Shown: in pieces, positions 49,329 to 49,392 of the stretch
How positions within the stretch are numbered: the first letter of the stretch is position 1
Layout: each line of letters starts with the position of its first letter
DNA from: Escherichia coli
GTDB lineage: Bacteria > Pseudomonadota > Gammaproteobacteria > Enterobacterales > Enterobacteriaceae
Direction: 5' to 3' (one strand)
Length of the DNA stretch: 64,000 bases
NCBI RefSeq assembly: GCF_003018255.1
Contig: NZ_CP027440.1
Position numbers and translations under genes: made by a program
The notes under the pieces: model-generated
The model's database searches: none
What the model saw: the letters and a program-made list of their open reading frames with translations, nothing else
What the model was told of the DNA's origin: nothing

Positions 49329-49392
49329 ATACAAAAAATGGGACGGCACGCACCGTCCCATTTACGAGACAGACACTGGGAGTAAATAAAGT

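What the first reader, a model, noticed from the sequence alone, without database searches (positions are those of the whole stretch)
49340..49359. Stable hairpin in the ilvE-ilvD spacer
GGGACGG-CACGCA-CCGTCCC followed by ATTT lies between ilvE and ilvD. It may act as an internal partial terminator or RNA processing and stability element that adjusts distal operon expression.
Basis: seen in the sequence. Interest (0 to 1): 0.15.

Follow-up and report, generated by a model that had tools for sequence, protein, structure and literature searches.

The report
Conserved RNA hairpin before ilvD
The hairpin between ilvE and ilvD is real and conserved as RNA structure across enteric bacteria, but it looks like part of the small-RNA-controlled start region of ilvD rather than a transcription terminator.

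Summary
It lies in the 64-nt ilvE-ilvD spacer of an E. coli ilvLXGMEDA operon. It folds far better than shuffled sequence and is single-copy and almost invariant in 5,424 E. coli genomes.

A stable hairpin occupies the same place across Enterobacterales. Compensatory changes and G·U pairs point to selection on the sense RNA.

It is a poor sense-strand terminator. The tail is AUUUACGAG, the consensus scan calls it only on the minus strand, and published Term-seq lists no 3' end nearby on either strand.

Its 3' edge sits 23-29 nt before the ilvD AUG in most species, while its distance from the ilvE stop varies from 4 to 36 nt. It directly abuts the published GcvB pairing site (C-19 = 49374).

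The loop is the best-conserved block of the spacer. CACGCA complements the invariant apex of GcvB stem-loop 1. The Morganellaceae loop UUCGUUCC complements GcvB BS1.

Best reading: a structural module of the GcvB/Hfq-controlled ilvD leader, possibly a second GcvB docking site. A role as a decay barrier is not excluded. Interest is modest.

The parts
49326..49328 (+). ilvE stop codon (TAA)
   Evidence: ORF list and RefSeq annotation of an identical locus.
49333..49338 (+). Run of six A just 5' of the hairpin and partly within it. A run of 5-7 A is kept in most Enterobacteriaceae. It could be an Hfq (ARN)n-type site (inference), and it supplies the U-tract on the minus strand.
   Evidence: Sequence; alignment A1; minus-strand terminator call.
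49336..49363 (+). Full stem-loop AAAUGGGACGG-CACGCA-CCGUCCCAUUU (11 bp). The core 7 bp is at 49340-49346 / 49353-49359.
   Evidence: Fold z = -4.55. Core pair probability about 1.0. In 13 Enterobacteriaceae, 93% of cells are paired and 3 pairs carry double changes. On the sense strand there are 7 G·U cells against 1 A·C cell.
49347..49352 (+). Hexaloop CACGCA, the most conserved block of the spacer. It is the exact complement of UGCGUG in the apex of GcvB stem-loop 1.
   Evidence: Block identities: 0.95 for the loop against 0.82 for the stems and about 0.5 for the flanks. GcvB sequence verified. Apex AAUGCGUGUU is invariant in 19 gcvB variants.
49368..49375 (+). GACAGACA, the pairing site for the GcvB R3 seed (GcvB nt 155-162). 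C-19 of the published compensatory mutant is 49374.
   Evidence: Best accessibility-corrected helix in the region, -6.8 kcal/mol. Published reporter and compensatory mutation data (PMC9299463).
49378..49382 (+). ilvD Shine-Dalgarno sequence GGGAG
   Evidence: Sequence; conserved block in A1.
49393..49395 (+). ilvD start codon. The hairpin ends 29 nt upstream of it.

Best explanation
The stem-loop is a sense-strand RNA element that belongs functionally to the ilvD leader. It is a fixed structural module just 5' of the GcvB-R3 pairing site and the ilvD Shine-Dalgarno sequence. It is not a transcription terminator.

Shown:
- It folds autonomously.
- It is conserved in place, with compensatory changes, across Enterobacterales.
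- It keeps a constant distance to the ilvD AUG.
- It abuts the experimentally validated GcvB target site.

Inferred mechanism:
- The hairpin separates the ilvD ribosome-binding region from ilvE-terminating ribosomes and from upstream sequence. ilvD initiation is then independent and can be repressed by GcvB/Hfq.
- Its A-rich and U-rich flanks may bind Hfq.
- Its exposed, sequence-conserved loop may give GcvB a second contact. In Enterobacteriaceae this would be a loop-loop pairing with the SL1 apex UGCGUG. In Morganellaceae it would be pairing with BS1 GGAACGAA.

I give the loop-contact step about 0.3 on its own.
For: Structure and selection:
- Fold statistics.
- 93% of cells paired, 3 pairs with double changes, and every slid control far lower.
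- G·U outnumbers A·C 7 to 1 on the sense strand.
- Unrelated stems occupy the same position in Erwinia, Budvicia, Proteus, Morganella and Photorhabdus.

Anchoring: the stem's 3' end lies 23-29 nt before the ilvD ATG in most species, while the distance from the stop codon to the stem ranges from 4 to 36 nt.

Link to GcvB:
- GcvB represses ilvD. A compensatory pair, G156C/C-19G, was shown, and repression was not abolished by R1 deletion plus R3 mutations (PMC9299463).
- My top predicted helix is exactly that site, 5 nt downstream of the hairpin.

Loop:
- It is the best-conserved block of the spacer (0.95).
- CACGCA complements the SL1 apex, which is invariant while the SL1 stem varies.
- The Morganellaceae loop UUCGUUCC complements GGAACGAA (BS1). 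BS1 is accessible to RNase T1 and is used for SroC pairing (PMC4474525). It is invariant in all 22 gcvB variants, including Providencia.
- That helix ranks first or second in accessibility-corrected scans of four Morganellaceae leaders.
- Chance of the 8-mer match is 0.1-0.3%.

Not a terminator.
Against: - There is no experiment on the hairpin itself.
- The 6-mer match in Enterobacteriaceae alone is weak: 5% against a fixed GcvB, 14% against shuffled GcvB.
- The E. coli SL1 apex is predicted as a GCGU tetraloop closed by three weak pairs, so a kissing contact needs some opening.
- Two Enterobacteriaceae carry other hairpins without CACGCA: C. werkmanii, with a dispersed-repeat insert, and Enterobacter sp. 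Bisph1. Any loop contact is therefore dispensable there.
- The ilv spacers and the gcvB sequences come from different genomes. The Morganellaceae test uses Providencia GcvB as a stand-in.
- The constant distance to the AUG could simply reflect a fixed-length RBS segment.
Confidence: 0.42

Rival explanations
1. Generic intercistronic decay barrier or insulator. The stable hairpin blocks 3'-5' exonucleases, protecting ilv(G)ME segments, or hinders RNase E access to ilvDA. This sets the relative stability of proximal and distal operon segments with no sRNA contact.
For: A stable GC-rich hairpin is kept in place with unrelated sequences in many families. Selection is on the sense strand. Species that lost the CACGCA loop still keep a large hairpin at the site.
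Against: No accumulated 3' end is seen at its base in Term-seq under three conditions. This model does not explain why the loop is more conserved than the stems. It also does not explain why the position tracks the ilvD AUG rather than the ilvE stop.
Confidence: 0.28
2. Leaky intrinsic terminator on the sense strand that lowers ilvDA relative to ilvGME.
For: A GC-rich hairpin lies just after a stop codon. In Morganella, Photorhabdus and one MAG the sense-strand tail is U-rich.
Against: In E. coli the tail is AUUUACGAG, and Enterobacteriaceae have 0-4 U in the 8 nt after the stem. The scan does not call the site on the + strand. No Term-seq 3' end is listed there.
Confidence: 0.1
3. Intrinsic terminator for antisense (minus-strand) transcription that enters from ilvD. 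It would protect ilvE and the operon from antisense RNA polymerase.
For: On the minus strand the scan finds 12 pairs, a 4-nt loop and the tail UUUGUAUUUA. This is the best terminator-like site in 9 kb. The 5-7 A run is conserved in most Enterobacteriaceae. Rho-dependent antisense termination regions exist elsewhere in the operon.
Against: Seven G·U cells on the sense strand would be A·C mismatches on the minus strand, and the minus-strand fold is weaker in those species. No minus-strand 3' end is listed in Term-seq. No convergent gene is annotated. The minus-strand U-tract is absent in Morganellaceae, Erwinia and Klebsiella sp. BIGb0407.
Confidence: 0.07
4. Relic of a mobile or repeated palindromic element (REP/ERIC-like) with no function of its own.
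For: In C. werkmanii the same site holds a dispersed repeat, with a median of 8 places per E. coli genome.
Against: The E. coli hairpin is single-copy, with a median of 1 place per genome. It is near-invariant in 5,424 genomes. It is conserved with covariation across genera.
Confidence: 0.03

Closest known systems
OxyS-fhlA type bipartite sRNA-mRNA pairing (one contact at the RBS plus a second loop-loop contact). Recalled from established literature, not tested here.
   Same: One sRNA contact overlaps or adjoins the ribosome-binding site, here the validated GcvB R3 site at 49368-49375. A nearby mRNA hairpin displays a short complementary loop.
   Different: The loop contact here is only inferred from complementarity and conservation. 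The sRNA partner segment (the GcvB SL1 apex) has no described target.
SroC-GcvB two-site pairing (BS1 + BS2; PMC4474525)
   Same: It uses GcvB nt 13-20 (BS1) together with the R3 region (BS2). The Morganellaceae hairpin loop is an exact 7-8 nt complement of BS1. The E. coli ilvD leader uses the R3/BS2 region.
   Different: SroC is a sponge that destabilises GcvB, whereas ilvD is a repressed target. In Enterobacteriaceae the loop matches the SL1 apex, not BS1.
Intercistronic mRNA-stabilising hairpins (for example the REP sequence between malE and malF, or the puf operon hairpins). Recalled from established literature.
   Same: A stable stem-loop between two cistrons of one operon, selected on the sense RNA.
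   Different: This one is single-copy and not REP. No 3' ends are mapped at its base. Its position tracks the downstream start codon, and its loop sequence is constrained.
Leaky internal intrinsic terminators within operons
   Same: A GC-rich hairpin shortly after a stop codon.
   Different: The U-tract is lacking on the sense strand, and no termination signal is seen in Term-seq.

Membership tests
Intrinsic terminator, sense strand | GC-rich stem-loop | tested here: met
   The 7-bp core has 6 G-C pairs, at about -13 to -17 kcal/mol.
Intrinsic terminator, sense strand | U-tract (at least 5 U in 8 nt) directly 3' of the stem | tested here: not met
   The tail is AUUUACGAG and the site is not called on the + strand. 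Enterobacteriaceae have 0-4 U in 8 nt.
Intrinsic terminator, sense strand | RNA 3' ends map just downstream of the hairpin | tested here: not met
   The Adams 2021 Term-seq tables have no ilvE, ilvM or ilvD entry and no coordinate 39532xx-39536xx. Caveats: the strain is K-12 (ilvG-) and the lists are thresholded.
Intrinsic terminator, antisense strand | Hairpin plus U-tract on that strand | tested here: met
   12 pairs, a 4-nt loop and the tail TTTGTATTTA.
Intrinsic terminator, antisense strand | Pairing conserved on that strand, and 3' ends present | tested here: not met
   Seven sense-strand G·U cells would be A·C mismatches on the minus strand. No minus-strand 3' end is listed.
REP/BIME/ERIC dispersed palindromic elements | Many copies per genome | tested here: not met
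   Median of 1 place per genome for the 36-nt hairpin query at E <= 10. For contrast, the C. werkmanii insert has a median of 8 places.
Intercistronic decay-barrier hairpin | Stable hairpin between cistrons, conserved as sense-strand RNA structure | tested here: met
Intercistronic decay-barrier hairpin | Hairpin-dependent difference in half-life, or ends accumulating at its base | tested here: inconclusive
   No 3' ends appear in published Term-seq. Half-lives and 5' ends cannot be tested with these tools.
GcvB/Hfq target leader | Seed complementarity to GcvB at or near the RBS, validated by compensatory mutation | tested here: met
   GcvB 155-162 pairs with 49368-49375 as the top-ranked helix. 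The experiment itself is published, not mine (PMC9299463).
GcvB/Hfq target leader | The hairpin loop contacts GcvB | tested here: inconclusive
   Exact complementarity to conserved GcvB segments is found in two families. Chance is 5-14% for the 6-mer and 0.1-0.3% for the 8-mer.
Any Rfam family | Covariance-model match at gathering score | tested here: not met
   No hit at 49.3 kb in the whole-window scan.

The most novel reading that the evidence does not exclude
The hairpin is an sRNA-docking stem-loop. Its exposed, sequence-conserved loop would pair with the 5' domain of GcvB and cooperate with the seed contact at the ilvD RBS.

The docking partner would have been rewired between families while the hairpin stayed in place:
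- CACGCA with the invariant SL1 apex UGCGUG in Enterobacteriaceae.
- UUCGUUCC with BS1 GGAACGAA in Morganellaceae.

This would give the conserved GcvB SL1 apex its first target. It would also explain the residual repression of ilvD that does not depend on R1 or R3.
Probability: 0.3. Interest if true: 0.55.

Novelty: new member of a known kind. Interest (0 to 1): 0.3.

Why it matters
IlvD is the step shared by the isoleucine, valine and leucine pathways, and it is the operon member most strongly repressed by GcvB. A conserved, unannotated stem-loop fixed next to the GcvB site is a concrete handle on how one internal cistron of a polycistronic mRNA is controlled independently of its neighbours.

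If the loop contact is real, it would show a bipartite sRNA-mRNA interface that uses a part of GcvB with no known function.

For strain engineering (valine and isoleucine producers), it marks 28 nt that should not be treated as a neutral spacer, and should not be assumed to be a terminator.

Tried and rejected
- Rfam scan of the whole window: nothing at the site.
- Promoter scan: no sigma-70-like site in the spacer. A 5'-terminal hairpin of a primary ilvDA transcript is therefore unsupported.
- Classic ilv papers (Lawther 1987, Huang 1992, Wek 1986) and Thomason 2015 and Lalanne 2018 are not held.
- Supplements of Dar 2018, Choe 2022, Conway 2014, the nanopore paper and Miyakoshi 2021 are not held. 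The Yan 2018 and TERMITe tables have no ilvE or ilvD entry.
- The CLASH tables gave only a CyaR-ilvE chimera.
- A literal search for the hairpin sequence in papers found only knockout primers.
- Cis pseudoknot: the complement of the loop (TGCGTG, or GGAACGA in Morganellaceae) is not at a conserved position within 2 kb. Rejected.
- Small ORF at 49338-49385: the start codon lies in the stem, there is no SD, and neither frame nor stop is conserved. Rejected as a gene.
- Search for other apex-complementary motifs in the window: no enrichment, 67 against 76 expected.
- Whole-length duplexfold of GcvB against the leader gave unphysical long duplexes. I replaced it with an accessibility-corrected helix scan.
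- BS1 pairing with CGUUCCG at ilvD +13 in E. coli: that site is predicted to be 98% paired. Not pursued.
- Attempts to pull divergent 'E. coli' records and further ilv promoter or Northern literature were unproductive.

Full report
OBSERVATION. The window at 49340-49359 reads GGGACGG-CACGCA-CCGTCCC, followed by ATTT. The stem extends through A-U pairs to AAATGGGACGG/CCGTCCCATTT at 49336-49363, giving 11 bp. The surrounding genes are ilvE (48399-49328) and ilvD (49393-51243) of an ilvLXGMEDA operon with an intact ilvG. The 1-kb region is 100% identical to annotated E. coli chromosomes. The spacer is 64 nt.

As RNA the spacer folds at -19.1 kcal/mol against -8.5 +/- 2.3 for shuffles (z = -4.55, 0 of 200 as good). 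In a 401-nt context the seven G/C-rich core pairs have probability 0.99-1.0 and the loop is fully unpaired.

IS IT SELECTED, AND ON WHICH STRAND? The 36-nt hairpin segment is single-copy, with a median of one place per genome. It is at least 99% identical in 5,293 of 5,424 E. coli genomes and carries no annotation. The 121-nt spacer region is at least 99% identical in 5,331 of 5,422 genomes, although the flanking kilobase of this strain is only 95-99% identical to most genomes.

I collected ilvE-ilvD spacers from other species.
- E. albertii, Salmonella, K. pneumoniae, K. aerogenes, C. farmeri and Citrobacter sp. FP75 keep the identical 20-nt core. So does Superficieibacter, which differs only in the A-U extension.
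- K. michiganensis, Raoultella, Enterobacter sp. BIGb0383 and Klebsiella sp. BIGb0407 carry stem changes that keep pairing.
- Erwinia, Budvicia, Proteus, Morganella and Photorhabdus have unrelated GC-rich stems at the same place.
- Vibrio species have spacers of 0-34 nt and no hairpin.

On a 13-sequence Enterobacteriaceae alignment, 93% of cells are paired and three pairs carry changes on both sides. Every version slid by 1-3 columns drops to 31-50% paired. Non-Watson-Crick cells are 7 G·U against 1 A·C on the sense strand, and 4 against 0 in the core. Where such wobbles occur, the minus-strand fold is weaker. The numbers are small, but they point to selection on the sense RNA rather than on the minus strand or on DNA.

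IS IT A TERMINATOR? The consensus scan does not call the site on the + strand, where the tail is AUUUACGAG. It does call it on the minus strand, with 12 pairs, a 4-nt loop and the tail TTTGTATTTA. Across Enterobacteriaceae the sense tail has 0-4 U in 8 nt, while a run of 5-7 A precedes the stem. Only Morganella, Photorhabdus and one MAG have a U-rich sense tail.

The curated Term-seq tables of Adams et al. 2021 cover MG1655 in LB at two densities and in M63 glucose. They contain no 3' end assigned to ilvE, ilvM or ilvD. One sheet runs directly from the ilvL attenuator end (3950400, +) to an ilvY end (3957809, -). No coordinate 39532xx-39536xx appears on either strand, nor any Rho-termination region there. 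I placed the hairpin at about 3953424-3953443 in those coordinates, using the ilvL and ilvE positions.

Two caveats apply. K-12 is ilvG-, and the lists are thresholded. Even so, neither a sense nor an antisense terminator is supported, and no stable 3' end accumulates at the hairpin base.

WHAT IS IT ATTACHED TO? Across species the 3' edge of the hairpin lies 23-29 nt before the ilvD ATG in most cases, although spacers range from 59 to 91 nt. The distance from the ilvE stop to the stem varies from 4 to 36 nt. The element therefore tracks the ilvD initiation region.

That region is a published sRNA target. Miyakoshi et al. 2021 (PMC9299463) showed the following.
- GcvB represses an ilvD translational fusion through its R3 seed, with a compensatory pair G156C/C-19G.
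- Repression persisted with the R1 deletion.

C-19 is window position 49374. I verified the E. coli GcvB sequence (100% match next to gcvA; Rfam RF00022, 199 bits). In an accessibility-corrected helix scan, the best interaction in 49280-49450 is GcvB 155-162 UGUCUGUC with 49368-49375 GACAGACA, 5 nt downstream of the hairpin. The GACAGAC block is also kept in the two Enterobacteriaceae whose hairpin was replaced.

THE LOOP. The hexaloop is the best-conserved block of the spacer. Mean pairwise identity is 0.95 for the loop, 0.82 for the stem arms, 0.84 for the SD region and about 0.5 for the flanks. It survives even where the closing G-C pair is lost (K. michiganensis, Raoultella). Proteus, Morganella and Photorhabdus share a different loop, (U)UCGUUCC, on stems that differ between Proteus and the other two. 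No conserved cis complement exists within 2 kb.

Both loops are exact complements of segments of the GcvB 5' domain.
- CACGCA pairs with UGCGUG (nt 35-40) in the apex of stem-loop 1.
- UUCGUUCC pairs with GGAACGAA (nt 13-20).

A metagenome scan for gcvB gave 22 distinct 5' domains that I aligned. In all 19 Enterobacteriaceae-type variants the apex AAUGCGUGUU is invariant while the SL1 stem varies. The other types have different apices: Providencia (identified by an exact GcvA match), Yersiniaceae, and one unidentified type. CGGAACGA is invariant in all 22.

GGAACGAA is the BS1 site of Miyakoshi et al. 2015 (PMC4474525). There G14 and G18 are cleaved by RNase T1 in free GcvB, are protected by SroC, and were validated by compensatory mutation. 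BS1 had no other known partner.

Using Providencia GcvB as the Morganellaceae stand-in, the loop-BS1 helix ranks first in Proteus and both Photorhabdus leaders. It ranks second in Morganella, behind a 13-bp R1 site at the SD.

Chance expectations are as follows (plus arithmetic).
- The 6-mer: 5% for a random loop against a fixed GcvB, or 14% against dinucleotide-shuffled GcvB.
- The 7-mer: 0.4%.
- The 8-mer: 0.1-0.3%.

The odd loop of Klebsiella sp. BIGb0407, CAUGGA(C), complements GcvB 160-165. That match includes a stem base, and about 20% of such cases would arise by chance.

WEAKNESSES OF THE DOCKING IDEA.
- The Enterobacteriaceae match alone is not significant.
- The E. coli apex is predicted as a GCGU tetraloop closed by three weak pairs.
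- C. werkmanii and Enterobacter sp. Bisph1 have other hairpins without CACGCA. The C. werkmanii spacer holds a dispersed repeat with a median of 8 places per E. coli genome.
- The ilv and gcvB sequences come from different genomes.
- Nothing here is a physical test.

CONCLUSION AND MECHANISM. I rank the readings as follows.
- 0.42: a sense-strand leader hairpin of ilvD that works within the GcvB/Hfq-controlled initiation region.
  - Shown: autonomous folding, conservation with covariation, anchoring to the ilvD AUG, adjacency to the validated GcvB site, and lack of terminator features and of mapped 3' ends.
  - Inferred: it insulates ilvD initiation from ilvE translation and from upstream sequence, its A/U-rich flanks may hold Hfq, and its loop may give GcvB a second contact (about 0.3 on its own).
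- 0.28: a generic decay barrier or insulator without sRNA contact.
- 0.10: a leaky sense-strand terminator.
- 0.07: an antisense terminator.
- 0.03: a relic of a repeat element.

COMPARISON WITH KNOWN SYSTEMS.
- It resembles intercistronic stabiliser hairpins in form, but it is single-copy, shows no mapped ends and has a constrained loop.
- It resembles bipartite sRNA targets of the OxyS-fhlA kind and the two-site SroC-GcvB pairing in layout, but the second contact is unproven.
- It matches no Rfam family.

I file it as a new member of a known kind: a conserved cis-acting mRNA stem-loop in an sRNA-regulated intercistronic leader. Interest is modest (0.3). It would rise if the loop contact were confirmed.

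Noticed in passing
window 49338-49385 (+): A 15-codon ORF (MGRHAPSHLRDRHWE) runs from an ATG in the 5' arm of the hairpin to a TAA just past the ilvD SD. It has no SD and its start is buried in the stem. Frame and stop are not conserved: in K. pneumoniae it is in frame with ilvD, and Superficieibacter has no ATG. It is probably not a gene.
   Followed up: partly
L004:1355-1490 (Citrobacter werkmanii ilvE-ilvD spacer): The hairpin is replaced by a 158-nt spacer whose insert is a dispersed repeat (2-13 places per E. coli genome, median 8, in unannotated DNA). From memory it looks like an ERIC/IRU element. The GACAGAC GcvB site and the SD are retained.
   Followed up: partly
L098-L177 (gcvB loci from metagenomes); L097:1501-1706: The apex of GcvB stem-loop 1, AAUGCGUGUU, is invariant in 19 distinct Enterobacteriaceae-type variants while the SL1 stem varies with compensation. 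Providencia and Yersiniaceae types have different apices. I found no described function for this apex.
   Followed up: partly
window 49405-49410; L090, L093, L009, L011 at about -39 from the ilvD ATG: CGTTCC (complement of GcvB GGAACG) sits in ilvD codons 5-6 in 9 of 10 Enterobacteriaceae. In Morganellaceae it is lost from those codons but present in the hairpin loop. In E. coli the coding copy is predicted to be 98% paired.
   Followed up: partly
L093 and L009/L011, ilvD leaders: Morganella has a 13-bp complement to the GcvB R1 region at -22. In Photorhabdus the SD region pairs with GcvB R2 over 10-11 bp. GcvB control of ilvD may therefore be conserved with different seeds in different families.
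   Followed up: partly
window 48900-49900 versus 49300-49420: The 1-kb ilvE/ilvD segment of this strain is only 95-99% identical to 5,118 E. coli genomes, and 100% identical to just two of the hits shown. The 121-nt spacer is at least 99% identical in 5,331 of 5,422. The non-coding spacer is more conserved than the flanking coding DNA.
   Followed up: partly
window 46473-48119: ilvG is intact (548 aa), unlike the frameshifted K-12 allele. Published K-12 transcript maps may therefore not fully represent this operon.
   Followed up: no
window 46164-46453; 37723-42942; 11202-11359; 60728-60827: Rfam hits: Rev39_5p_UTR over the ilvL leader region, a complete rrn operon with tRNAs, the sRNA STnc410, and the TrxA 5' UTR thermometer.
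   Followed up: no
window 52824-52842 (+) and 52787-53761 (-): A strong + strand terminator-like hairpin (AGCGGCTCATGAAGCCGCT followed by TTTTTTT) lies after ilvA, inside the 3' end of the convergent ilvY gene.
   Followed up: no
proteins P0001, P0121-P0135: The 90% protein cluster that holds E. coli IlvE also contains IlvG sequences. Its representative is an IlvG, and P0001 is a 403-aa protein with IlvM-type and IlvE-type domains. This looks like a clustering artefact caused by fused gene calls.
   Followed up: no
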